A DNA stretch of 64,000 nucleotides from Camelus dromedarius (taxonomy: Eukaryota), in assembly GCF_036321535.1 (NCBI RefSeq), contig NC_087472.1:92568001-92632000 (forward strand), read 5' to 3'. The notes beneath the pieces are model-generated. The model was not told the DNA's origin. It searched no databases and saw only the letters and a list, made by a program, of their open reading frames with translations. Shown here one piece after another: positions 7,396 to 47,074 of the stretch. Position 1 is the first letter of the stretch; each line of letters opens with the position of its first letter. Position numbers and translations under genes: made by a program.

Positions 7396-9079
7396 AAAGG
7401 TACAAGGTATGATGGGAGAAGAGAAGACAAACATTTCCTCAATATCTACAATCTGCCAGTTACTGTGTAGGCAAGGCAGATAGATAGATATACTTTATGT
7501 AAGTTATCTATCAACCTTACTGACATCATTTAAAGTTAGGTATTATCACCCCTGCTGTACATATGAAGAAACTTGCATTCAGAGAACTTTAATAACATTC
7601 CCCATGTTGTACAACTAGAAATAATTCCTTCATCCATTCAATTCATAAACAGCAATTAATCTTTACTATATATGCCTGGCACCAAGAGAACTAAAACTAA
7701 ACAACCAAAGAAAAGTTTACTAAAAGAATGATATCATAGACAGAAGTCCAGCCTGGAACCCTATAGCACAATGAGAACTCTATGTGGAATAAAGACTGAA
7801 GAAGTCACCTGTGATCAGGTGGTACTTTGTATTTACAATTGAACCAGGAACATCATAAAAGGATCCAGAAGAATGTATCACAGTACGCTCTCACCTTAAA
7901 TACCATCTTTTTGCAGCAATGATCAAGATAGGCATCAAAGAGCACTTCAAATTTTTAAACCCACAAATTTTCACTGAGCAAACACTGTGTCAAACCCTCG
8001 GTAAGGATAACAAGAAAGAGCTCGATACTTTCGATGGAACCTCAAAAGTCTCCACTTGTAAATTAGGACAGCCTTCTAAATGGTTTCATAAAAATTACAA
8101 GACCATTAAAATGTTCATTTTTACTAAAAGCCCAACTGATCCACAGTGGCCACTCTTCTCCATCTTCCTGAGAAAAAATATTGCCTTCTCCTCCACTCAT
8201 TTCTTTATGTCATTAAGTAAATATATTCCCTGAAACAGAAAACTATCATCTAAAGACACACATTGCCAAGGGCCTATTATGGTAGCTTTTAAGGATATTT
8301 AAAAGATTTCTTGATTTGGAATAGAATTGGCAGTGACTGTGCTGAACCACTTCTCTGAAATGGTTTGTAAAATTAGGAAGGGAAAATTAGCAATTGAATT
8401 CTTATATCCAAGGGGCACTAGCATAAAACACAAGAAAGTATAGCTCTGCTTTAGTTTCATAAGCTTTATAGTGTTTTCTTGTTTTCATAAAGAATATGCT
8501 ATTACCTTCATTAAAAGTAAACTGTTAATAGTCGGAATATAAAAAAAGTACATGTAAATACTCTATGAACTCAAAAAAGACTATCAGGAAGAGTTATCCC
8601 TGCAAAACCAAGTAAATTAATTACCAGCTTTAAACATATAATTTAAAAAGGTAGCACTAAGCAGGAAAAGTTATGTTAAGATGATGAAAAGAGAAGAAAA
8701 TATGATGGTACAATTGACAAAGAATTTAAGACAGTCCGTCATCCAAAAGGACCCAAGTCTCACTTTCAGTATCATCAGTACGTTGATGTAATATTTAACT
8801 TCCTTTTGGCACTCTCACCAGCTTTGCTCTTTTTCTAAATACCCAGTAGCACATCTTCATCCTTCAAATAGGAGCATTTCAAGATCTCAATAGAATTATC
8901 ATTACACTCAATTTGGTCTCTGTCAAAACTCTTTATAACCACGCCACCATAAGCATCATTTAAATTCAAAGCTCCTAGTAGGAGCTTTGAAATAGAAAAT
9001 TCAAAATATCAATGTTCTACTTGACCTTCTGCCCTACTCTTGCCCCCAAAATTATTAAGGCAAAAATACAAAATATTTT

Positions 9080-10430: not shown

Positions 10431-10656
10431 TGGTCATATCCAAAATATCCGTAAGACATTGGTCTACGCCAAAAGATCTGTGATATTTTGTCATATTTGG
10501 TCCAAGCCAAAACGTCCTTAATTTTGGTCCTGTCCAAAACCATCTGGCATGGACCAAATATTTCATGGGCATTTTGTACAGGACCAAATTACAAGGACCT
10601 TTTGGTATGGGCCAGATATTTTACAGACACTTGGATAGAACCATTTATCTGTTAAC
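10431..10656. mobile_element. Palindromic modular ancient element (MER135-like)
   Basis: TGGTCnnnnCCAAAA-type units occur four times forward and then four times in reverse complement, forming an imperfect ~210 bp palindrome. The family name is from memory only. Confidence 0.6.
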
Positions 10657-14250: not shown

Positions 14251-17200
14251 GGGTATCTCTTGATAACAGAAATGCTGGTAGAAATAAGTGTGTTTAAACA
14301 GTGCATAATGAAAATTTCTAAGTGCCAGTATGTATAACTTTTGTAACAAATATCTGCACAACTTTTACTTCTATGATTTAAAGCAGAGATTTACCAGGAG
14401 TAATGAACAGGATGAATAAAACCACTGCACAATTACTAACAATGGAAATGTCATCATTTGTGACATATTTCTTACAGATATGACACCAGTAAAGTCCCAG
14501 CTTTCATCAGTCAATTCTACCCAAAAAAATGGTATGTGAATTTAATCTCCTACTACAGAGTTAAATGGAATACAGAGAAGAATGGCATTTTGAATGGATG
14601 ATCCCATAATGACCTCTAAATTATACAAATTAAGAAATGAAATGACCAGAAACTTGGGTGCAGTTTAATTCTGATATCAGAGGAAAATTAAAAATTGGTG
14701 AAACAGAATTCCTGAATAACAAAAGAAATTCTTATTTAGGAGAAGCATGACTTGATACTGGAAAAGTAGTGTGAAACAGTTCTTTCTTCCAGAGCTCTCC
14801 TATGTTCTCAGTCCCTCTCCTTTCCCACCCACAGTTCCTAAGAGTATAGTCCCTATGCATTGCCTTTCTCTACCTCCCCTACTTCATTAGTCACCCCTGA
14901 AATTCAACTTACTAAGGTCCCCAAAGCCCCCCTAATCGCCAAATCCAATGGACATGTTTCAGTTTTTATCCTCCTCAGTTTCTCTCTTGATTCTAAAATG
15001 TTTGATCATTCTTAGAATATGGTAAGCCTTTCAAATGTAGTTGCAAATGCATGACTGAATGAGTTCATCAATGGATTAATATATAAAGGAAAGATTAATT
15101 GAATGGCCTTAAGCATTACTGGATGTACTATAAAAAAACTGATCTGGTCCACAAAGCAATAAAACAAAAGATATAGATCAAATGCTGGAGGAAAAGAGTG
15201 AAACAGAGTAGAAATTTGGAAATTAGTATAGTGTGAATTTTCTTTAATCAGAAAATTTCAATGCATGGATAGACAATCATGAATTGGAGATGCTGAAAGG
15301 GGGAAATTATATTGAGAACTGAGTCAGATTTAATGATTTCCATGATCATGCAAATCAGGATTCTAATATTTTATTATGGAACAATAATAAATGATATGTC
15401 CGCATAGATACAGACAATTGTGAATTGAGGAAATGGAATGCAATGAACATCAAGGCAAATTACTGACTTAGACAATCAAGAGGGTCATAATTAGAAGGAA
15501 GAAGTTTTGTTAACACACTTTTAAAGCCTATCAACAAGTTTGTAAATGAGTGACATAACTACTATCAATGATGTGATGACAGGCATAGATCTTCCAAATA
15601 ATATTATGTCAGAGAATACTGCAACCCTGAATGAATACTCCATTTCTTCAAACAGTCAATACTGTCCATTATATGCATGTAGTGGTGATCGTCCTTAATA
15701 AACAGATTGAGATTTTCTTTAAAGTCTGTCTTTTTGCTTATGCTTAAGATTTTTTTTCCCTGCATAGACTCTAGGTTCCTTCACTTCAACATCCAGCATG
15801 ACTATGATGAAACTCTAGAAACTCCTAACAAAGCCTTCAGGTCTAGCTTTGTAAATCTCTGTTGGAATGGAAAACATAGCAGAGGCATTAAAACCTTGTA
15901 AAAGAAAGTCCCCTGTTGCTATAGTAATGTCTAGTTCCTAAAGGCTCAAAGAAAGAAGTCTTTTCTCTGATTCACCTGGGTTCTGTTTTTGCATTGGTGA
16001 TATTTAGATGATTAAAGGTTTTTGAGAGAGAAGCATTTGCTATAACCAAGGAGAGACTTCACGTTCAGTTTTAGTCTATAAAATCAGATTGTGGGCACAC
16101 AAATCCACATTCAGTTAATTCACTGAGACAACATACAATGTGTGGTAGTGACTCACCATTCATTCAGAATGCTCCTTCCATGTTTTTCTTTCCTAGTGCA
16201 ATGTCCTAGTGCAACTAAATATTGTGTCTTTTTCCATTAGTCAATTTGCTTCTAACAGATTCACACTGAATCATATCATTTGATCAGAGTTTACAGGGAA
16301 GAGTCATATTCATTCACTACCAATATTCAAAATAAAGGAAAAAGTGAAATGTTGATTCACTATTAAATATAACCTACAGTCCTAATTTGCAAAAATAATA
16401 AAATGTAATACTTTGTCTTGTTTGCAATTTATCACTGGTTCTTGTGCAATGAACATACATGACTCTAGGAAATATCTAACTTTCAGACACCTATTGGAAA
16501 TACACGTATATCTGTGTATGTGCATATGTATTATTCTGTTTAAAAACATTTTCTAAATATCACAGCTGTATAAAAGTGGCTTAAAACTTGAAATGCATTA
16601 TAGAGTTGCTATACTGATGTTATAGTAATACATACACACATAGAATATTTTAATACTTGGTATATAAAAACCTCAATAGCAAATGTTACATTGTCACACT
16701 GAAAGGATAATCATTATCCAAAATGTACACATTGCTTCTTTTCTATATAAATATACATACAAAACTTCTTACCTTGTCTAGAAATTCAACCTACAATGAT
16801 ATTTACAACAAGATGTTCCATTTTTAACTATTTTGAAGAGTCTATAAAGGATGTTCCAGAGTAACAAATGTTGATCAAATTTAAGAAGAAATATATCAAA
16901 TTTATTTATGGTGTTTTTACTCATGTGATCCCATTGGGCTAAATATCTATTTATGTTTCCTTGAAAGATGGACTATAATGTAATAATATGGCACATTTTA
17001 AATTATTCCTTCTACTACACCATTTACTTTGCAAACACGCCCTCTACAGTAGTGAAAGCCACTAGAAGTTCCTCAGGAACACATGTTCACAAAGAGAACA
17101 GAACGCCTTAGTCTCTGTGTTTCCTGTGAACCTTCTAGTATAGATTTTATCATGCTATACTGTTTGTATTTATCTCCCACTTTACACTGTGAGCTCTTTG

Positions 17201-19220
17201 AGACCAGGGATCACACTTTAGGCATTTTGATCTTCGCATGCAATGTGGCCAGGCTATAAATAACTACTGAATTAATGAATGATAATAAATGAATAACACT
17301 TATCACAATCTACTATCTATTTTTATCAGTTATGTACAAGTCTAATGACCACTTTATGCACTAAATAATAAAATTCTTCTGCTCTATACATATTTGGATA
17401 GCTTTTTTCTCTGGCACACTAATCAGATGTTTGGTAAATATTAAATTTTAATTTGAGATGTGTAAAGTTTAGGAGTAATAAAAATATGAACCAAAAATTT
17501 TCCTATGGCTCTTTCAAAGACTTTTTAAAGACAATAACAATTACTCCCTTGTCTGTATTTTCTTCTGAGTTACAGGGGAGAAATTTTGCCCCCCACAGGC
17601 ATTAGGCTTTGATACACATGGCTCTAGTTTCCAAGATGAGCTTCTTTCTGAAGATAAAATTCCTCGCACTTTCTTTGGGGGATGGATTTGAGATGCCTTA
17701 CAAATAACAATGGATACTGCTCTATCTTGAAACCTCAGAAATATTCCACAAATAGACTACAAGCCCATTGGCATCAGTAGAGATTTAAGTCTAATATAAG
17801 GTCTTTCTTAGTACTCATCTTTAATTATCCTATTGAGAAATTTTCTTTTTTTAATAATACACCTTTCACCTGAATCAGCCTGGCATCTACTATCAATAGT
17901 AGGCTTCTAAAATATAGTTCAAATTTGAAACAAAATTTTATACAATTTACTGTGATATTTAGGAAATGTTTTAAAACAGAGTAATATGACCAGTATGAAA
18001 TTTTGCAGTCAAAGCTGCAATGTCATACTGACCTTCGAAACTTATGAGGCTTATTTGTAAAAGAACATTATTACCTAACATTACAAAGTTAAAATAATAG
18101 CAACCATTAAACTCTTTGAGAATTCATGTTGGATTACCAATATGGAATTCCTGAGAATAATAAAGACTTCAGATACCCAGACACCAATCCAACATTGCTG
18201 GCTATAGTTTAGAATCAAACAAAGCATTTTATTTAGAGTTCAAAACTCACAAAGCCTTGTGAACAGGTCAAGCAGACTCTAATATGCTACATCTGCTCCT
18301 GTGGTTCCTCCATTTTTTTAGATAAAATGTCATTCAAACAGTGTTTTCCCTATTCCCACATGAGTTCTTAGACTATTCAGAAAACTCACGGGGAGAAAGA
18401 TTACTTATTCATGAAAGCAGGGTTTCTTTGGTCAAACTAGATTTGATTGGCATGAGCAGCAACTATGTCTGACTCCAAAGATTTAAATATTCATTATAGC
18501 ATAATCATGGCATTTAAATATCTAAGCATTAGAAGTTTCAAAGTAATTCTCATTTTGGAATAAATGTGGCCTATTTTGCATAGATGACCTAACAGAATGA
18601 CAAAGCATTATATTCTTATAAATTTACTGTTTGGCAAAATAAAATTTAGAATATTTAGAATTTTGTTAAAATACCTTACCAAATGTTGCTTAGATTATTA
18701 AACAATTTTATCCAACAATTGATAAACAAATGAGAAACAGCTCCTTAAATTATCTGTATATGTATGCCTCTCTTTGAATGAATTAAGTCTTCCTGTAATT
18801 ATATGCATAAATTAAAATTTTATGACTTGATCACTGTATGTAAAATCAAGGATAATTCAATCACTCTAGGAGAATGCTTTCATAAACTGCTCCCCTTGCC
18901 ACAGAACTGCAGTATAGATATACATGTGAGGCTGGAGGTATATACACACACATAAATATTTCAGCATTGAACTTGCAAAAATCTGTACATAACAGACATG
19001 AGACACTCAACTGAAATATTATAAAATCTCTCTCAAGTTTCTAATTTATTACTGGGCATATTTCTTTCACAGAATGTAGGACATCTTTTGACAGTGAACC
19101 TAAGCTGAAGTTTAGATTTTAGTGATAAAATTCCAATTGAACTCACTATTAAAAACAAGCAATAAAACAACCCAAGAAAATGTTCAATTTCTAGATCAAT
19201 TTAGTTTATAGAAGAAATGT

Positions 19221-25085: not shown

Positions 25086-27739
25086 CTGATGATCTTAGAA
25101 AGGATTTGCAATTAATGTCACTTTGAATAAGTTTGCTCACTTTCCATCAATTCATATAATGTTTCTGTCTTTTAGATGAACTTGTAAAGGTCTTTCAAAA
25201 TACACATATTGAAACTTATTTTTCTAAGCAGTTAAAAAATCCAAACCCACTAAGATCATATTTAAATGTGAAAAATAAACATATGTACCAGAAAGTATTC
25301 TCTCATTTAAGTTCTACAAAGGCCACCATCTTTTTTTTTTTCCTATGACAATTCACACAATTAAAGCCACGGTCAATGTGACTAAAGACATAAGTCACTA
25401 TGACTGAAATGTAACCTTGCAATTATGTCAGAAGACTTGGGCTATATTCACTCTGTCACTGACTATTGGTGTGAAAATGGAGTAACTCCCTACTTTCTAT
25501 GTATCTTATTTATGCACCAAGTCATCTCCCTAAGGTTCTCTCCAGATCTCATATTCAAAGAGTCTGTTTCTTCCCTTGTTAAGTGAGGGCATCTTAAGTA
25601 CCAAAGAGAAATGAAAAATTATTATTTTAAGTAGGATTTTCAAAAAATGTTTTAGGATTACAATGAAATTTATGAAATTATGCCCTCATTTGTTATGCCT
25701 TATTTTCCAGGGCGTATAATGCATAGTATGTCATATGTGACACTTAGAAGACTGAAGGAGAAAGTCTTCTGAGGTAAATAAAGACAAACATGTGTCTCAC
25801 TTGAGAAAGGGAGAAAAGAAGGTGGAGGAGAAAGAAGTGTGCAGGCGGCTAAGAGACAATGGCACTATGACATACAGATCCTAAGACAAGCTAAAGATAA
25901 TCTGAAGAGTAAACAGAAAAAGCATGAAAAATCCACGGCGAGATTAGACTCTACAGAAAATAACTGAGCAACTATTTATCAAACACCATGCTAGGTCCTG
26001 GGAATACTGAGACATAGTCTCCTTTCTGAAAAAAAACAAATCACAGTCCATGAGGAAGACAAACCTGTAAAAAGGGAACTACCACAAAACAGGGTAATTA
26101 TTCTACACAAGAGAATCGATGTCTTTAAAACTAGTTCAAAAGAAAAAACGATAACTACCTAAGCAGTGTGTTCATCCACATTTTCTGGCCTGATGGAGGA
26201 GTATGCAGCATTGTAAGTGGTATGACACTGGTAGGGAAAATTAGGATAGGAATCTTTTTGTAGAATAAAAGGAAATTGTCAGAGTCCATTATATAGACTA
26301 GTTTTCTAAAATGACTCAATTCTGTTCAGCAAACAGTTATTGAACACCTGTTGTGTATGAGGCACAGAGATAACTGTAGGCACACAAAGGTAAACAAGAC
26401 CTAGGACCTGTATTCAGGAAACTCAAAGTCGAATAGAAGAAAATCAGGAAGCAATGGAAAAGAAGATAGTGTTGTTTTACTGCCATACATCTATGGAGCT
26501 CCTAGAGTGGTAACAAGAGAGAGAAAAGATTGTAATTTGCAAGATGAAAACATGGGATGTAAGTGAAAAACCCTATTAGCTTCACTAGACTCTGCTTTTC
26601 TCTCATAGTGATGCCTAATCTTTTTTCTACTCAGAAGAACACTCCGAAAATTGGGAAGGATGCTAAGCAGCATCCCACACAAACATTGGCAAGGGATGGA
26701 GATTAATCTCTCCCCACCTCTTGAGCAGATCACAGGGAGATTAAAGAAGTCTTCACTTTCTTTGGTCAACACCGTGTTTAGCACCAAAGTAAACCAACAG
26801 ACTTTATCTCTGAAATCTTCTTGTAGCAGGAAGTAGACCCAAATTTCTCAATGGTTTATAAGGAATATAATTTCCCCAAGTACTCTGAAAGAATCGGGGG
26901 CTGCTGTCAGATTGCTGGAGGTTTACAGTTAGTGGTTCTTCACTGCTTCAAGGCTGCAAACTGACCTGGTTTGAATTACATTTGACAAGGCATTAATACC
27001 AACTGTGTAGATGGGAGAGTAACTAACCCTAGAAAGCATTAAACTGAGCTAGGAGTTATATTTTCTTTAAGGAGCCTAAAATGTGATTGATATCAGAGTA
27101 AAAACCTTGCAAGCTGTTAAGCAGAATGTACCCTCCTGCCCACACAAAAAAGTAAGAGTATGATTACTAGGTGAGCCTGGACTGAGGAGGATTATGCAAG
27201 AAGATGCTTTTTACAATGCATCTTGATGGAAGTAAAGGTTGAGCGTGATGAAGAAGAGATACTGGCATGAGGCAGAACAAAAAGAGAGAAAACGTACAAG
27301 CCTGGATGTGAGGTCAGAGTAGAGACAAGAAAAGAAACCACTGGGGTTCAAATAAAGGACATAGGGAAATAAAGAGGTTGTATGACCTTGAGATGGGGAG
27401 AAGGTGTGGAGCATGAAATCACACAGGGGTCAGAATAACTTAAACATAGGCAGTAGGGACGATATAACAGAGGAAAAAAAAAAATCCGTAAGATATCTTT
27501 GACAAAGGAATCAGTAGGCCTGACTGATTGGATTCACATGAAGAAAAAAATAAAAGACAAGATTAAGTAGAGTCTGGCTTTGACTCTAGATTATCCAAAA
27601 ATATAGACTCTGTGGGCTTGGGGTGAGGGGTGGGGCAGAAAGGTGGGAGAAGAAGAAGAAAAGAGAGGGTGTGAAAAATGTTTGACTCTATATAACGGTC
27701 TATATAATGAGGAGAGCTGATTTTCCCTCTTTCCAAGTG

Positions 27740-28060
27740 CAAAGCGCTCATGAGTATGAACGGGTCGTGCTGCAGCGCTCTGTCAGCCGCTTTCCTTCTA
27801 CGGGGCAGAAGAGTCAAGTTCATTACATCTGTGGGGACTTGGGAAGCTCACAAATAACAGTGGTCATTAATCACGCTGGCTAAATTCCTGAGCTACAGAC
27901 CTGAAGGTATGGAAAAGTACGCAATTTAAGGCTTTGTCTAACGTTATTTTAACTTAGCTTTTGACAGATAAGTTCAGGCCCGAGTTTACGCTCTGTCGTG
28001 AAAGAAGGCTGGGAATAGCACCTGCTTTGTCTTCCGCACCATAAATCTCAACCGCGGGGA
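27740..28060. promoter_or_regulatory. CpG-retaining unique patch; candidate enhancer or internal promoter
   Basis: I counted 15 CpGs by eye in ~310 bp of non-repeat DNA, against a CpG-depleted background. Confidence 0.5.
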
Positions 28061-29924
28061 ACACTGCATGTTTCACACACAACAGAAAAGATACATCATA
28101 GCCATTAACCTTCCCCTTAGTTGCTGATAAAGTAAAATAGACCCATTCTTTACAGGAACACTTACGTATCTGTTCAGATAAATATTCTTCTACTGCAATA
28201 AAGCCTATATTTTACATATAGATGGACTCCAAAATCAATTTTGCAAAAACAATGAGTGTTAGTTTAATATTCGTGTGATGTGGATGCAAAAATAATACTT
28301 TAAAGGCAAAAGTACAACAGTTACTTACATTTAAATTTATCAAATAAACAGAGTAAAATTTCTCTCTCCTCCCCCCCACTCCCTGCCTCTCTCTTTCTCA
28401 TCATACACATAAAAGAATTAAAGGCAGGATTCTCACTGGGAAGTTGAAGGAGATTTAAGATGACATCTTTGAGAAGGAGAATCATAGCTGTCAAATGACC
28501 AAAGCTGACAGAAATAATTCTCCTTTGCAATCCTTTTGAATCTAGGAATTGTGTTGAAATTCACTTTCTCTTTTGGAAGAATGCCTTTTCTTTTTTTTTC
28601 CTGAATAGTCTCAGTTGTTATTTCTGATGCTAGACAGAAAAGGCTTCCTGAGAGGTGAAAACTTGGGTGGAAAAAAGCAATTAAGCCATACTGGGCTGAA
28701 AAAAAATCAACATTGGCTCATTTGTGTTTTTTGTCAACTTGGTTCAACAGCACTGGTTTAACTTCTCTAAGTGCAACAGACTTGCAAATGCCCAATGTAG
28801 ACAGAACACTTGCCTGGGAAAAGCCTTCTCTAGATAAGCCCAGTTGCACTGAGGGAACAGGGAATTTCTCCACCATGACAATTTTTTCACTGCAGAGGCA
28901 AGCTGCTTCAACCAAAGTCATCATAAACTTTGTAGAATGGTGGGGCACACCATCTGATTCCTTTCGATGTCTTGGAGATTCCTCCCAAACTGGCTTTAAA
29001 AGTGGATATTTCCCTTGTATACCAGGTGTATTTACTATTGCCTGGAATAAATGTCGTTGGAGTTGGGGTGTTGGAGGTGGGAAGCTTGGGATCTTGGAAG
29101 GGACTCAACTTTGCAGAAACAGGCTGAGAAACTGCAGATGGTTAGGATAACCAATTTCTTGGTTTTGTCATCACTTCCTTTCCAGTTTAATAATAACTGT
29201 ACCTATCTGCAGTTATCCATGGGCAAACAAAATGAGCTATGCCACTCTCACTTGGCTCAGTCCGTCATTATCATTTATTTACTATACTGCATAAATTAAG
29301 ACAGCATGCCAATAAAAATGATTTCCTCCATTTGAAACCACACAAAAATAAATGATAAACCTAACAGGAAGCAAAATGTCCATCAGACATCCTACATCTC
29401 ATCTTGAAACACATTCCATTTCAACTGTGGAAAGAGAAAGCTCCACTCAGCTCTCAAAAATTACAGACCAAATGTCATCACCAGATCAACTGCTAGAGGC
29501 ATCTTTCTAATAAGAACATTCATGTGATGAAATGCAGAATAATACCTTTTTATCTAATACTTTCCTCAAGATTATGATTTAAGAAAGATCCTCTTCAAAG
29601 CACTCTTTAATAGTTTATAACAAAACAAACTGATATCCTATAAATTAATGTTACATCACAAATGCTTCCGTCTTTTAACATATTTCTTCACATGCATTTT
29701 TTAGAGATGGAAGTTCTCAGAGAGAATGGTGTGAAAGTGTTTGCTTTCTGGACTACACTATCTTGAACATATAGGCACCCAATCTAAATGTTCTAATATC
29801 ATAAAGATGTCCTATGTTCATATTGGGTAAGTCCAGGATCACTGCAAACATACTTCAAGTGGCAGCATCGGGTGGTTGATTTTTTTCATGTAATACACTC
29901 AATGAGTTTTTTTTTTCAGTACTG

Positions 29925-38100: not shown

Positions 38101-38928
38101 CAGAAATGTTTCTTTGAGATTTTTACCTTTGTTTAGTTCCTCTGATTCAGGTTTAACACAGTATAATTCAGAACATAAGGAACAGTATCAGAGAAGATAT
38201 CTGCTTGTTAAAAGACAAGAACTTACCAAATCACAGAGTGTCTTGAAAATACTGCAAACTTGATTTGTTTTACCTGACAGCCATTGTTTTCATAACTGTT
38301 TAACATAACTACCTAGAAATAATTTTGCTATCATAAACTATATTAGAATAAACCTTAGTAATATATTCATAACACGTTTTTAAATTTCCACTTTTTACAA
38401 GTATAAATTTGTTTTCCCCATTTACCACACAAAGAAATGATGGAAATTTCCAGAAGAAATAAACATTGACTATTCTATATTTTATGTTCACATGGAGATC
38501 TTGATTAAATTACCTTGCAACAAACATATTAGTTGTATTTGCAACTTTGTCTTATAGACATTTAGAATCTCTATAATTGTTTGATATAAAACTGGAATGT
38601 CACAGTTAATACTGTACAGCAGAAATTTTATTGAACCTTGTATATGTATTGGTGTATCAGTACAGGTATAAGTCTTTTACAAAGACTATTAACTAATCTT
38701 AGTGTGGCATCTTGAATATAAATTAACACCTGAACTGGTTTCTCATATTTGAAATTATGATTTTTTCCAGTTTGTTAAGGTAGTTTGTTCTTATATTAAC
38801 AATTAAATACTGTTTTCAAATTTATTTTCTGCCATTTGTGATCTTAATAGAATAACAAATGAATGAAAGCTTTAGGTAATTTAAGAGCAATGAACAGGTA
38901 ATGGACAGAACAGAAAGTGAAAAGCACA

Positions 38929-39084
38929 TGGCTTCCATTACAGCTGATAAGAGATGTACTGGGATAGAGCCAAAGAAACAGTCCACGAAATCTTGGCCTT
39001 GCGACCAGCAATTCCACTGGCCAGAATTCTGTGAACAGTTGTGATGGCTCTATCCCAGTGCATCTCTTTCAGCTATAGAAGTCA
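38929..39084. repeat. Long imperfect inverted repeat (hairpin)
   Basis: 38942-38972 is the reverse complement of 39045-39074 with one mismatch and one gap. The inner arms also pair imperfectly. Confidence 0.95.
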
Positions 39085-40049
39085 GTGATGAAGCTAAGAC
39101 AGTGGTGAAACATGCCTTATAAGAATTATCTTGCTGCTTGAATAAAACCCAGGAGCCAAAGTCAAACCTGAAGCACACATAGAGAAAAGACAGTGTTACA
39201 CTGTGGCAAAAACTCCAACAAAACACTTTCAGGTATCTTGAAAAATTGGTGTCTTCATGTATTCATTTTTGATGTCTCATGAAACGTTATTTTATATCTC
39301 AGTTACAATGTGAAGTGACATTTACATATGCAGCCTAACTGGACAACAGCACGCACTGATGAATTTGAGGTGCCGTCATGACCTGTGCTGTAAGAGTAAT
39401 AATATCTCTGAATTTTTTTAAAAAAAATTCTATATGAGTTTATAGACACTAATGCTCCAAGATGCACACGTGAAATTCAGAGATCTGGCTTTTTTAACCT
39501 CCATTCTTCAAATGCAGATTAAAAATGCAGCTAACCACAGGTGTTATGGGACTTCCTCCCAGGTCTCCTGACCCCAGCGCACTAGCTGCTCTTTCCACTA
39601 AACATCTAGCAATGACAGATATGCAGGTTGTAGATGAGAAATCCATCCTGAAGTGGCTGTAACTTCATGCATGCTCCCATGCCCCCAAGCTGTGAAATTC
39701 TCCAGCCTGCTTGCAGGAGGTGCTGAAGGAGCTATATGTGGGGGACAACAAAAATGCCAGATGGCAGTTTGTGAGAAAATCTGGGACCAGGGCAGTCAGC
39801 CAAAAACAGTGGACTGAATAAAAAAGGATGATCACCAAGAATATATGCCCCCTCCAACGATCACAAATGAATGGAAGATGAGTTATGGCTCTCTTCTTTA
39901 TACAGGTAAAAATTCTTCACACAATTTTTCATCCATGTGTACAACAAACAAAACAAGAGTCGTAAACATTTAAAAAGCGTTTGTGTTGGGCTGATTTATC
40001 TTATTATCATTTTCTTTTGCTTCATTAGTAGTAAAAAAAAAAAAAAGCA

Positions 40050-40450
40050 GCCCATTGACAAGGAGAGTGCAAGCAAACTTAAAAAATAAAGTGTTTCCAA
40101 AATTTTAATTTTACCACCAGAAGCAAAAGAGAATGTTTCAAGGAACCACTTTCTACTTGATTTGTAAATAACAGAGGTGTTTGCATTGTATTGATTGTTA
40201 TTGTGCGCCTTTATCACTTTTATTGTCTGCTGCAGTATAGCCGTTTGAAGGTCTGCCAAACCACTGCGGCTTGCTGAAAAGCAGGGCTGAATTTTAATTA
40301 AGCCGAGCCAAATAGACACAGAACAGTTGAACTTGATTAGACCACTTGTCCTGATGCACACACACAGGGCATTCAGTAAACTTATTCTAATAAATGACAA
40401 AGTCAGTTCATACATTTGGTGAAATTACCAAGATAAAAATCACCGTTTGT
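40050..40450. promoter_or_regulatory. Candidate enhancer or conserved non-coding element
   Basis: Repeat-free block with tightly packed FOX, SOX, ONECUT and homeodomain motifs. Confidence 0.4.
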
Positions 40451-43400
40451 CAACATATTCCTTCTACGTAAGACTTCTGCTCTCTATTTTAATCCAGCAA
40501 GCCACCAAGGAGAGCTGAGAGGGAAGGTAGCCAGTGAGGATATATGTGGCATAATATCTGATAACAATAATATTCTATATTCCTTGGGAAGAAGCAGTAT
40601 ATGAGTTTAGTAATTAGGATTCAAGAACACTGTTCAAGTAAAGAAAATAATGTATCTCTGTGTGTGCATGCATGTGGGTACTGATTTTGTCTTCAAATAT
40701 TTTAATCTCAAGAAAAGTTTACCGCAGCATTTAGCCCAGAGAAGGGAGCAGGTGGGATGTCAGATTTCATGAATTTTTATTTTTGATACTTCAGGAAGAA
40801 CAAAGCATCCAGGTTTCTGGCTTGAGCAGCAGAACTGTGCTAAATAAAATGTGTTCCCACGGTAACTTCTCCTGAAATCAGCCAGTGTAATTTTCCCACA
40901 CAACACTGGAGAACTGAGTCTCTGATATGGCCACGTTTCTGCAAAGCAAACTGCTATATAAACTGACTGCTGCGTTAGACCCAGTAACCTCTGCAATAAT
41001 ATCTAAAACAACTTTCCTGTGCAGATGTTCAGACTCTTAGCAAAAACCACAACTTCCCTAATGGTGGGGATGTGAACATAGGCAATATTTTTAAATTAAA
41101 CACACAAAGGAGATACTCTTTCTGTATATATGTATCCGGGATGATGAATAAACCCTAAAATATGAATAAGTTAATGTTTCCTACTAAAGTATCAGCGAAA
41201 ATTCAAAGATAAAGTCTAAAAGTTGAAACAGGATCTTGCATATACATCAAGGTTCCTTTGATAAATTCAAATCACTAAGTCTTTAATAGAATTTTCTACT
41301 TTACCTCCCAACTTCCTAATACCAATTGACTACACATAATCCTAAGAAAATAACAATCCTCTCAGAATTAGGAAAATAAAAATTTAGTAAACTTCGAAAT
41401 ATAAATGGATGCCTTTTCTGTGCAGGAAAGCAAATTAGGCTTTAAAAAGAAAACAGGATCTTAAGTTCTCATCCTTGACAACAGCAAGAAAAAGGAGCAT
41501 ATTTCAACTACTTCTTTCTCTACTGCAATTTAACTCTTTATTGTTGTCTACGTGAGTGAAAGAAGAAAACAGTTTTGTGACAATTTAACTAAAACTCATG
41601 ATAAATACACTTTTAAAAATAAGTCATTCACTATTAAAAAAAATGAGCTTTAAAGCCAGATCATACTGAATTTGAATTCTATGGATGTAATTTCCTAGCT
41701 ACATTATGTTCCTCAAGTTACTTACCCTCCATTCTATCAAGTATAAAATGGAAAGAAACAACAGCTTGGGAATAAATATAATGTATAAGAGGTATCTTGT
41801 TTAATGTCTACATAACAAATTTTTAAATGAAATTTTCAACGTGTAAAAGTTGAATAGATTCACATGACAGGAAGCAAGTTTCCATTCCATGAGACTGAAT
41901 ATATATTTCAAAAATACTCAACTAGATCTTAGCTTTTGGGCACAACTGTGAAGATGGTGCAGTACTGGCATGTTGTATGTACTCTTTGATTTTATTCTTT
42001 TTCTTCCCAATGGAGCCCACTATCTACCAGTTTATGTCTAATGTTAGATGCACCGAAGGCTAATGTGGCATGTACAATTTTTATGGGTCTATCCTTCATA
42101 TCAATGTTAGCATTTCATTTTTCAATTTCTATTCATTTTCCTAAAGTAAATGGACTTTTAAAATGCAAATAATTGCATGGCTATTGCAAATTAGGCAACA
42201 CAGGAAACATTACTCAAACTCAACTGCTGACTGGCATACAGCACCTTCATGGAACAACCTGAAGTCTTCATTTCACATCTGCTCTTCAGAAGGTCAGACT
42301 GTGGTTTCCCAAAGGCCATTTATGGAGAGCAATGTCTAATATATAAAAGGATAGATACCAAAGTTAAATCTACAAACATGAAGGAGAACCTCTATGTTCC
42401 TATGTGTTACTCTGTACTTTATGGAGGACTTCGTTTCTAACGGCTATGTGTTAGTATAACACCCCTATCCTGCTATGCTCTGTCATTCAACCCCATTCAT
42501 TCCTCCATTACAGTGACCTCAAATGGTAATTTTGTATTTATGTTATGAGCTTCATTGTTTTCTGTCTGCCTCCTTTATAGTTTGTATGTTCTATATGGGC
42601 AAGGACCACAAACATTTTTAAATGGCAATACATAGAATTGTTCTAAAACAGTGTCTAACACACAGCCAAGACTCAACAAATATTTGTTGAATGAATCCCA
42701 AATGAATAAAACCTAAAGGCTAAAGGATAAGCTCCTCATTCAGGTAAGATGGAGGGGATCTGTTTTTTTGTTTTTGTTTTTGTTTTTTGTCTTTCCCCTG
42801 CTAACTACTTTGGTTATAATCTAACCTGCTCATTGGTTTGGATCATATCCAGTGTATATTTATTATTCAATTTTTCATCAGATCAAAGTAGAAGAGACCT
42901 TGAGATGTTATTCTTGCCTTGGGGTACTGCTACTACTCAAAGCATTCAGTAAACATTGGCCTTTTCTTAAAACTCTAGAGGCCTCATGAAATTCAGATTA
43001 GAAATAATCTTGCCTAGAGGGTAGAAAAAGGGTGACATCTATAAATGATTCTAATATATAATCCCAAGTTGGACCTTGCAAGTATTTATTCTTATGGCAG
43101 AATTACAGCCTGCCCCATCCTCTCTCTGGGGATGAGGGGTTTGTGTTTCCTGCTCTTAGTCAGGGGCTTGTTGATGTGTCGGATGGGATCATGAAAAGAT
43201 CTAGAGAAGAGGTGGGATGTGGGGGCCAGTGCAGGGGTAGGGGTCACGTGATCTGAAAAGATCAGTTTGGAGGGAAAGCGAGAAGGGAGCACTGAAGCAT
43301 GGTAAACAGTTTTCAAGAAGAGGAATGAGTGAAAATAATCCTTAATTATTTTTGTCACTCTTTCAAAAACTCATAAATATCAAAATTGCCTTTTAAAGTT

Positions 43401-44695: not shown

Positions 44696-47074
44696 CAGGC
44701 ACACCTTGGAGATATTCCAGGTTCATTGGTGCCAAACTACTGCAATAAAGCAAGTATCACAATAACGTGAACCACAGGAATTTTTTGGTTTCTTAGTGCA
44801 TACAAAAGTCATGTTTTTACTATACTATAGTCTACTAAGAGTGCAACATTATGTCTAAAAAACAATGTATACACTTTAATCTAAAAATAACTTCTTGTTA
44901 AAAAATGCTAACCATCATCTGAGCCTTTACCAGTAATCTTTCTGCTGGGAGAAGTTCCTGCCTCAATGCTGATGGCTGCTGACTGATCACGGTGGTGGGT
45001 TGCTGAAAGATGAGGTAGCTGTGGCAATCTCTTAAAATAAGACAACAGTGAAGCTTGCTACATCAGTTGACTCCTCCTTTCACAAACCATTTCTCTGTAG
45101 TATGCAATGCTGTTTGATAGCACCTACAGCAGAAATTCTTTCAAAATGGGAGTAAATCCTTTCAAACCCTGCTGCTACTTTATCTAAATTTATGTAATAA
45201 TCTAAATTCTTTGTTGTCATTTCAACAATCTTCATAGCATCTTCACCAGGAGTAGATTCCATCTTAATAAACCACAAATCCCTAAGAAGCAACTCCTCAT
45301 CGGTTAAAGTTCTATCATGAGATTGCAGCAATTCAGTCACATCTTTAGGCTCCACCTTTAATTCTAGTTTCCTTGCTATTTCCACCACATCTGCAACTGC
45401 TTTCTCCACTGAAGTCCTGAGCCCCTCAAAGTCATCCACGTGGGTTGGAATCAACTTCTTTCAGACTCTTGTTAATGCTGATATTTTGACTTCTTCCTAT
45501 GAATCACTAATATTCTTAATGGCATCTAGAATGGCGAATCCTTTCCAGAAGGTTTTCAATTTACTTTGCCCAGATCCAGGAGAGGAATCACTATGGCAGC
45601 TATAGCCTTACAAAATGCATTTCTTAAAAAAATTAGTCTTGGAAGTCAAGATTACTCCTCGACTCATGGGCTGCAGAATGGATGTTGTGTTAGTAGGCAC
45701 AAAAACATGAATCTCTTTCATTGCGTATCTCCATAAGAGCTCCTGAGTTTACCAGGTGCATTGTCAATGAGCAGAAATATTTTGAAAGAAACCTTTACTT
45801 CTGAGCATTGGGACTCAACAGTGGGCTTAAAATATTCAGTAAACCATGTTGTAAACAGATATTCTATCATTGAGGCTTTGTTGCTCCATTTATAGAGCAC
45901 AGGCAGAATAGAGTTAGCATAATTCTTGAGGCCCCAAGGATTTTCAGAACGGTAAAAGACCACTGTCTTTAACTTCAAGTCACGAACTGCATTAGCCTCT
46001 AACAAGAGATTCAGCCTGTCCTTTGAAGCTTTGAAGTCAGGCACTGACTTCTTCTCTCTAGCTATAAAGTCCTAGATGCCATCTTCTCCAACAGAAGGCT
46101 GTTTCATCTACAAAGAAAATCTGTCAGTTAGTGTAGCCATCTCCATTCCTTATCTTAGCTAGACCCTCTGGATAACTTGCTGCTTCACCTAGTACTTTTA
46201 TGTTATGGAGACGGCTTCTTTCTTTAAACCTCATGAACCAACCTCTGCTAGCTCTACACTTTTTGTCTGCAGCGTCCTCACCTCTCTCAGCCTTCACAGA
46301 ATTGAAGGGAGTTAGGGCCTTGCTCTGGATTAGGCTCTGGCTTTAAGGGACTGTTGTGGCTGGTTTGAGCTTTTATTTAGACCACTCAAACCTTCTCCAT
46401 ATCAGCAATAAGGCTGCTTCACTTTTTTATCATTCACTGGAGTTCTCTGGAGTGTTCACCGGAGTAGCACTGTTCATTTCCTTCAAGAGCTTTTCCCTTG
46501 CATTCACAACTTAGCTAACTGCTTGGCACAAAAGGTCCAGCTTTCAGCCTATCTCAGCTTTAGACATGCCTTTCTCACCAAGCTTAATAGTTTCTGGCTT
46601 TTGATTTAAAGTGAAAGATGTGTGACTCTTTCTTTTACTCAAACACTTAGAGGCCACTGTACAGTTACTGGTGGGCCTAATTTCAATATTGTTATGTCTC
46701 ATGGAACAGGGAGGCCTAAGGAGGGGAAGAGAGACGGGGAATGGCCACTTGGTGGAGCAGTCAGAACACACACATTTGTCAATTAAGTTTGCCATCTATA
46801 AGTGTGGTTCATGGCGCCACAGAACAATTACAATAATAACATCAAAGATCACTGATCACAGATCACCAGAGCAAATATAATAATAATGAAAAAGTTTGAA
46901 ATATAGTGAGAATTATCAAAACGTGGCACAGAGACACAAAGTGAGTAAACATTGTTGGCAAAATGGCTCTGACACACTTGCTCATCACAGGGTCACCACA
47001 AACCTTCAATTTATAAAAAACACAGTAACTGCAAAGTGCAATAAAGTGAAGCATGATAAAACTAAGCATGCCCG
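44696..47074 (-). mobile_element. Near full-length Tigger1 (TcMar-Tigger/pogo) DNA transposon with degenerate transposase
   Basis: Degenerate terminal inverted repeats CAGGCACACCTT (44696) and ...AAGCATGCCCG (47074) are flanked by CA and TA (mutated TA TSD). Length is ~2.4 kb. Minus-strand ORF pieces read as Tigger transposase: SKRKSHTSFTLNQKPETIKLGEKGMSKAEIG (N-terminal HTH), [19 protein letters not shown]...LLIDNAPG (DDE region) and DDFEGLRTSVE...VTELLQSHDRTLTDEELLL (C-terminus). The frame is broken by frameshifts and stops. Confidence 0.96.

What the first reader, a model, noticed from the sequence alone, without database searches (positions are those of the whole stretch)
38929..39084. 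~156 bp palindrome with a near-perfect 30 bp outer stem in otherwise unique DNA
Seen: the left arm AGCTGATAAGAGATGTACTGGGATAGAGCCA (38942-38972) pairs with TGGCTCTATCCCAGTGCATCTCTTTCAGCT (39045-39074), giving 29 Watson-Crick pairs, one non-WC pair and a 1-nt bulge. The inside is also self-complementary but more decayed (AACAGTCCACGAAATCTTGGCC vs GGCCAGAATTCTGTGAACAGTT), with a small TTGC-GACCA-GCAA stem in the central loop. The non-WC pair is U:G on + and A:C on -. Established: A:C mismatches in long duplexes are favoured ADAR sites, and ancient palindromic repeats (Eulor/UCON/MER12x-13x classes) are often exapted. Inference: the better-preserved outer stem suggests selection on an RNA duplex (editing substrate, Drosha-type hairpin or splicing switch), or arm-to-arm conversion.
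Basis: partly seen in the sequence, partly recalled or inferred. Interest (0 to 1): 0.7.

Follow-up and report, generated by a model that had tools for sequence, protein, structure and literature searches.

The report
Old jumping-gene palindrome in mammal DNA
The 135-base mirror-image stretch is real, but its shape is what a small, long-dead cut-and-paste jumping gene leaves behind, and nothing found here shows that the cell uses it.

Summary
The palindrome is real and at the stated coordinates: 29 of 31 outer columns pair, RNA z about -10 on both strands, and it is the best local inverted repeat in the window. Its ends read TA|CAG...CTA|TA around a 135-bp unit (38941-39075): 32-bp near-perfect terminal arms round an imperfect inner palindrome. 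That is the anatomy of a Tc1/mariner-type MITE. The claimed excess conservation of the outer stem is weak: permutation p=0.053, or 0.19 if a 4-nt block counts once. Both strands fold equally, wobble pairs split 3:2, and overall arm identity (76-80%) equals that of another palindrome in the window (78%). A canonical Drosha hairpin fits badly, and Rfam has no match. For the RNA reading: base skew suggests the minus strand is transcribed, and there the A:C mismatch lies in an ADAR-favoured UAC context. The 32-bp arms are also somewhat cleaner than neutral decay predicts (p about 0.09 or less). Copy number, repeat family, orthologues and editing could not be tested. Best reading: functionless MITE relic (0.5). 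Rivals: local template-switch product (0.2), selected duplex (0.2).

The parts
38939..38940 (.). TA, left flank; candidate target-site duplication
   Evidence: sequence; 2 of 2 match to the right flank
38941..38972 (+). left terminal arm, 32 bp, starts CAG; candidate terminal inverted repeat
   Evidence: 29 of 32 columns match the right arm: 2 transitions, 1 indel
38957..38957 (-). A opposite C (39060) on the minus-strand RNA, context UAC; candidate ADAR site, editing untested
   Evidence: neighbour preferences from PMC3113232
38973..38998 (+). left inner arm, imperfect; begins with a 4-nt mismatch block
   Evidence: 18 of 27 columns; mean pairing probability 0.80-0.84 for 38977-38998
38999..39018 (.). 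20-nt central spacer with a weak 3-4 bp stem
39019..39044 (-). right inner arm, imperfect
39045..39075 (-). right terminal arm, 31 bp, ends CTA (one change from the mirror of the left end)
39076..39077 (.). TA, right flank; candidate target-site duplication
38925..38938 (.). left flank that pairs loosely (9 of 14 columns) with 39078-39087; probably not part of the element
   Evidence: empirical p=0.13 in 3000 random flank pairs

Best explanation
A relic copy of a short non-autonomous Tc1/mariner-type (Tigger/pogo-like) DNA transposon, a MITE of 135 bp (38941-39075). A transposase made elsewhere bound the ~32-bp terminal inverted repeats and inserted the unit at a TA, duplicating it (inferred). 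The outer stem is the pair of terminal repeats, which had to be near-identical in the active element; the interior was probably never a perfect mirror (inferred). Since then it has decayed without a selected function, possibly with some arm-to-arm repair during replication (inferred). If the host intron is transcribed, the RNA folds into a long hairpin as a by-product (fold computed; transcription inferred from skew) and may be edited incidentally.
For: Shown: TA on both sides of a unit that starts CAG; chance of TACAG at such a boundary about 0.02. Arm identity falls off just outside the TAs. The arms are 32 bp, close to the 37-bp terminal repeats of Made1 (PMC1784062). A TA-flanked ancient mariner relic has precedent in UCON39 (PMC5753468). 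The two strands fold equally well, and G:U falls 3 times on + and 2 times on -. Overall arm identity, 47 of 59 columns, is like the 43 of 55 of a second palindrome at 10493-10619. Stability is no higher than in simulated neutral decay of a perfect palindrome: 63% of 400 simulations were as stable or more so. The window also holds a full-length DDE transposon with a CAG end.
Against: No second copy was found: none in the window, and the genome could not be searched. No family was identified. TA is its own reverse complement, so matching TA flanks are not independent of the palindrome. The right end is CTA, not CTG. The terminal arms differ at only 3 of 32 columns: probability 0.09 in the simulation and 0.093-0.006 for arm-to-arm divergence of 0.2-0.3. 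By contrast the two ends of the full-length transposon at 44696-47074 differ at 5 of their first 13 bases (read). So youth, arm repair, luck or selection is needed.
Confidence: 0.5

Rival explanations
1. A local inverted duplication made or extended by template switching during replication, with no transposon involved and no function. The polymerase copied one arm from the other, perhaps twice, leaving a clean 30-bp segment beside an older imperfect one.
For: The clean segment ends abruptly at a 4-nt mismatch block. Template switching makes or perfects such arms in mammals, with over 6,000 hairpins in primates (10.1101/2023.04.19.537475). It also homogenises arms of 10-48 bp in yeast, where the screen allowed spacers up to 70 bp (PMC13100816). 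The spacer here is 72 nt. The unit is single copy in the window, and a 27-nt near-perfect palindrome at 8965-8991 shows short mirror repeats occur nearby.
Against: It does not predict TA|CAG ends (chance about 0.02). It needs more than one event to explain the inner arms. No ancestor or orthologue was available to show a switch.
Confidence: 0.2
2. A selected RNA duplex in an intron, of transposon or other origin. The minus-strand pre-mRNA folds into a 30-bp stem that binds ADAR or another double-stranded-RNA protein, with A38957 edited selectively, affecting processing of the host transcript. A selected DNA-level element is a variant of this.
For: The arms are cleaner than neutral decay predicts (p about 0.09 or less). 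Skew on the + strand is T<A and G<C in 43 of 55 one-kb blocks (mean -0.080 +/- 0.015). By recalled transcription-linked asymmetry this makes the minus strand the sense strand. The A:C is on that strand with 5' U and 3' C, the best and second-best ADAR neighbours (PMC3113232).
Against: There is no strand bias in energy or wobble pairs. On the minus strand 3 of the 5 transitions break pairing. Any single transition gives an A:C on one strand. The outer-versus-inner contrast is not robust. No exon was found that the duplex could regulate: 0 host-gene Pfam hits among 49 candidate frames out of 655 frames of 38 or more codons. There is no Rfam match. No conservation or editing data were obtained.
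Confidence: 0.2
3. A Drosha-processed microRNA precursor born from the palindrome, as miR-548 was from Made1.
For: A 30-bp near-perfect stem in a probably transcribed region; MITE-born miRNAs exist (PMC1784062).
Against: The clean stem is basal and continues into a paired inner stem (probability 0.80-0.84), not an open loop. Precursors would be 109-141 nt in all 17 registers tried per strand, against about 70-90 nt in PMC1784062 and a preferred 35-bp stem with an unstructured loop. CNNC occurred in 0 of 17 registers and basal UG in 1 of 17 on each strand (motif positions recalled). The only miRNA match was plant MIR408 at 17.4 bits against a cut-off of 64.
Confidence: 0.04

Closest known systems
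Made1 (Hsmar1-derived mariner MITE; source of miR-548)
   Same: Short palindromic unit made of long terminal inverted repeats (37 bp there, 32 bp here); folds as a hairpin when transcribed (PMC1784062 passages).
   Different: Made1 is 80 bp with a 6-bp centre and is primate-specific. This unit is 135 bp with a 72-bp imperfectly palindromic interior. No sequence comparison with Made1 was possible.
Ancient TA-flanked Mariner/Tigger non-autonomous repeats (UCON39, MER127, X-series DNA repeats)
   Same: TA flanks and short non-coding body; UCON39's first TA is a target-site duplication (PMC5753468 passages). CAG termini as a Tigger/pogo trait are recalled.
   Different: Those families are defined by dispersed copies and conservation across mammals.
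Template-switch hairpins (for example hsa-mir-4713)
   Same: Locally perfect arms of about 30 bp with an abrupt boundary.
Site-selective ADAR substrates in introns
   Same: Duplex with loops and an A:C mismatch in a favoured neighbour context. The A:C preference itself is recalled.
   Different: Known cases have measured editing and conserved pairing, usually near an exon (recalled). None of these is shown here.

Membership tests
Tc1/mariner (Tigger/pogo-like) MITE | Short, non-coding unit bounded by terminal inverted repeats | tested here: met
   135 bp; 29 of 32 terminal columns match; no frame of 90 or more codons overlaps it
Tc1/mariner (Tigger/pogo-like) MITE | TA target-site duplication | tested here: inconclusive
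   TA on both sides, but TA is self-complementary and no empty site was seen
Tc1/mariner (Tigger/pogo-like) MITE | Termini begin CAG (recalled trait) | tested here: met
   Left end CAG, right end one transition away; chance about 0.02
Tc1/mariner (Tigger/pogo-like) MITE | Many dispersed copies and a matching library consensus | not testable with these tools
   No genome held; no Dfam/Repbase tool; one copy in the window
Derivative of the full-length DDE transposon at 44696-47074 (Tigger1-like, name recalled) | Shares that element's terminal repeats | tested here: not met
   No BLAST match of the palindrome to those ends; only the first CAG is shared
hAT MITE (MER5/MER3/MER20 type) | 8-bp target-site duplication | tested here: not met
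   At most 4 of 8 identical at four boundaries tried; 3 of 8 at the CAG boundary. Old duplications can decay.
Canonical Drosha pri-miRNA | About 35-bp stem topped by an unstructured loop; short precursor | tested here: not met
   Inner stem paired at 0.80-0.84; precursor 109-141 nt
Canonical Drosha pri-miRNA | Small-RNA read stacks | not testable with these tools
   The run index uses 31-letter words (tool text); small-RNA reads were not examined
Known RNA family (Rfam 15) | Score at or above gathering threshold | tested here: not met
   0 hits in 64 kb; best overlapping hit 17.4 of 64 bits
Site-selective ADAR substrate | A:C mismatch in favoured context on the transcribed strand | tested here: inconclusive
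   UAC context on minus strand; transcription of that strand only inferred from skew
Site-selective ADAR substrate | Measured A-to-G editing and conserved pairing | not tested
   No read alignment or orthologue was obtained
Eulor/UCON/X-DNA ancient conserved repeats | Match to a consensus and conservation across mammals or amniotes | not testable with these tools
   No vertebrate genome collection or repeat library on hand

The most novel reading that the evidence does not exclude
A MITE-born hairpin kept by selection inside a giant X-linked intron (DMD or IL1RAPL1), whose 30-bp stem is a site-selective ADAR substrate at A38957 on the sense strand and influences processing of the long pre-mRNA. 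A milder version: a young, undescribed MITE family of this lineage.
Probability: 0.1. Interest if true: 0.55.

Novelty: new member of a known kind. Interest (0 to 1): 0.15.

Why it matters
As a MITE relic it matters little: camelid genomes carry about 280,000 annotated DNA-transposon pieces (PMC8605555). It would matter if the arms proved conserved and edited, since that would be a new regulatory duplex in one of the longest mammalian introns. It would matter a little if it marks an undescribed lineage-specific MITE family. The practical lesson is that a clean outer stem round a ragged interior is expected from terminal inverted repeats or arm repair and is not evidence of selection.

Tried and rejected
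Own-genome search: none held. Homologue scans found nothing related. The two-arm pattern gave 14 metagenome loci; none matched the 3-kb region by BLAST at E 0.1. A one-arm pattern gave 0 hits in prokaryote genomes and 4 in viral contigs, all limited to the short seed. Earlier notes: no look-alikes by sequence, place, words or relatives. Sequencing runs for 38500-40500: 14 of 24 rows are organism A with 0.99-1.00 of the words, 6 of them possibly the source. Two rows are organism B (0.87, 0.76) and four are RNA runs (0.30, 0.22, 0.13, 0.05). None was laid on the sequence, so they say nothing about the hairpin, its expression or its editing. Literature search for four 11-mers of the arms: 35 papers hold one, 30 were listed, I saw titles and abstract starts only, and none concerns this locus by title. 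The supplements of PMC8605555 (camelid repeat libraries S1-S4) could not be read and may hold the family. A paper on conserved hairpin families was not held. Host gene: 49 candidate frames gave one Pfam hit, the transposase. The 110-aa frame at 28721-29050 had no homologue among longer proteins only (weak). Nine recalled DMD/IL1RAPL1 peptide motifs and three dog DMD first-exon primers found nothing. An excess of transversions in the inner arms (5 of 7, p=0.09) was dropped because an ungapped alignment gives 4 of 10. Weak Rfam matches (SNORD75, MIR408) were rejected as far below cut-off. The prokaryotic promoter/terminator scan is irrelevant to this organism.

Full report
Observation. The arms are in the sequence as quoted. 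Aligned, the outer arms 38942-38972 / 39045-39074 give 29 matches, one mismatch (T38957/G39060) and one bulge (T38948); the inner arms give 18 of 27 columns. The 156-nt stretch folds at -81.2 kcal/mol on + and -80.5 on -, z about -10, with 0 of 200 shuffles as good. It is the strongest local palindrome in the window, score 69 against shuffled maxima of 32-48. The central mini-stem is weak. The pairing beyond 38939-39077 is compatible with chance (p=0.13), so the real unit is about 135-139 bp rather than 156. It is single copy in the window. Whether it is unique in the genome is open, because no genome is held.

Setting. The window is AT-rich (30-43% G+C). It holds dispersed repeats that I recognise from memory as mammalian L1 ends, and a full-length DDE transposon at 44696-47074. 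Unchecked earlier notes call the genome camelid and place DMD intron 74 on the same piece, 1.74 Mb before the window. Human DMD spans 2.2-2.3 Mb (abstract starts). So the window lies either in the 5' introns of DMD or, on the other side, in IL1RAPL1 (gene order recalled). These genes converge, so either would be read on the window's minus strand (inference). Base skew agrees: T<A and G<C on + in 43 of 55 repeat-masked one-kb blocks, mean -0.080 +/- 0.015. Reading this as transcription-linked asymmetry is recalled knowledge, and replication skew is an alternative. I found no host exon. Of 655 frames of 38 or more codons, 49 were scanned with Pfam and only the transposase hit. Recalled peptide motifs and three dog DMD first-exon primers (PMC7372313 passages) did not match. 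The host gene is therefore unconfirmed.

Anatomy. Arm identity drops just outside two TA dinucleotides (38939-40, 39076-77). Inside them the unit starts CAG and ends CTA, one transition from a perfect mirror. TACAG at such a boundary has a chance of about 0.02 from its frequency in the window. No longer target duplication fits: at most 4 of 8 at four boundaries. The terminal arms match at 29 of 32 columns. Terminal repeats of this size, TA flanks and a short non-coding body are the build of Tc1/mariner MITEs. Made1 has 37-bp repeats (PMC1784062 passages), and the TA of UCON39 is a target duplication (PMC5753468 passages). CAG ends as a Tigger/pogo trait are recalled. The caveat is that TA is self-complementary, so only an empty orthologous site would prove a duplication. 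The unit is not a derivative of the transposon at 44696-47074.

Is the outer stem specially preserved? Weakly at best. Fisher p=0.048 with a boundary chosen after the fact; a permutation of the 59 columns gives p=0.053, and 0.19 if the 4-nt block is one event. Overall arm identity (47 of 59) matches a second palindrome at 10493-10619 (43 of 55). In 400 simulations of neutral decay of a perfect palindrome to similar divergence, 63% folded as well or better, and 9% had outer arms as clean. Against my reading: at arm-to-arm divergence of 0.2-0.3 the chance of 3 or fewer differences in 32 is 0.093-0.006. The ends of the full-length transposon differ at 5 of 13 bases (read). So the arms are somewhat too clean for an ancient neutral copy. 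A younger family would do; an unchecked note reports a lineage-specific piggyBac invasion in this genome. Arm repair would also do: template switching perfects and extends imperfect inverted repeats (PMC13100816 passages) and makes hairpins in mammals (10.1101/2023.04.19.537475, parts 1-2 of 4). So would luck or selection. I could not separate these.

RNA readings. Selection on one strand's fold should bias mismatches towards G:U on that strand. Of five transitions, three give G:U on + and two on -, and the strands fold alike; the sample is small. A Drosha substrate fits badly: the inner stem is paired (0.80-0.84), precursors would be 109-141 nt, CNNC appears in 0 of 17 registers and basal UG in 1 of 17 per strand. 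Rfam gives nothing at threshold. The ADAR idea keeps some standing. The A:C lies on the probable sense strand in a UAC context, and 5' U and 3' C are the first and second preferences (PMC3113232 passages). But any transition creates an A:C on one strand, and incidental editing of a transposon hairpin is not function. No reads or orthologues were aligned, so expression, editing and conservation stay open. The run list has no positional information.

Mechanism, with status. Shown: palindrome, boundaries, fold, absence of strand bias. Inferred: insertion by a Tc1/mariner-type transposase at TA; the terminal arms are the transposase-binding repeats; the interior was imperfect from the start; decay since, perhaps with arm repair; hairpin formation in intron RNA as a by-product. 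Odds: functionless MITE relic 0.5, functionless local template-switch product 0.2, selected duplex of either origin 0.2, miRNA 0.04.

Known relatives and novelty. It works like Made1 or the Tigger-type non-autonomous repeats. Membership of any named family is untested, since no repeat library was on hand and the camelid libraries of PMC8605555 (passages seen) could not be read. I found no paper on this locus (listings only). Verdict: a real feature, most likely a new member of a known kind; interest 0.15. The bold case, an exapted and selectively edited duplex in a giant X-linked intron, has probability about 0.1 and would rate 0.55.

Noticed in passing
window 16529-16565 and 17950-17986: Inverted repeat of 37 nt, 34 of 37 complementary, 1384 nt apart, fading inward over about 100 columns. 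It could be an old inverted duplication, transposon ends or a long-range RNA pairing. It is as clean as the stem under study.
   Followed up: partly
window 10493-10619 (repeat units from about 10430): Second decayed palindrome, 43 of 55 columns, built of short repeated sub-units; MITE-like, family unknown.
   Followed up: partly
window 8965-8991: 27-nt palindrome with perfect 13-bp arms and a 1-nt centre; looks like a template-switch product.
   Followed up: no
window 44696-47074: Full-length broken DNA transposon, coding on the minus strand; Pfam DDE_1 at 45721-46071, E=2.2e-15. Tigger1-like by recall.
   Followed up: partly
window 27501-28100: CpG-rich patch (13 CpG in 27501-28000) in otherwise CpG-poor DNA; possible promoter or enhancer.
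   Followed up: no
window 28659-29150: Overlapping open frames of 163 aa (+) and 128 aa (-); no Pfam hit; a 110-aa part of the minus frame had no homologue among longer proteins.
   Followed up: partly
window 39300-39400 and 40140-40400: Non-repetitive stretches beside the palindrome that look like conserved non-coding DNA by eye only; no Rfam match.
   Followed up: no
window 1-64000: Consistent strand skew (T<A, G<C on +) in 43 of 55 repeat-masked blocks, and no host exon found: probably one long intron read on the minus strand.
   Followed up: partly
L001, L002, L003, L012, L014 around their matches: Unrelated long palindromes in microbial metagenome contigs that share only the 10-mer seed.
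   Followed up: no
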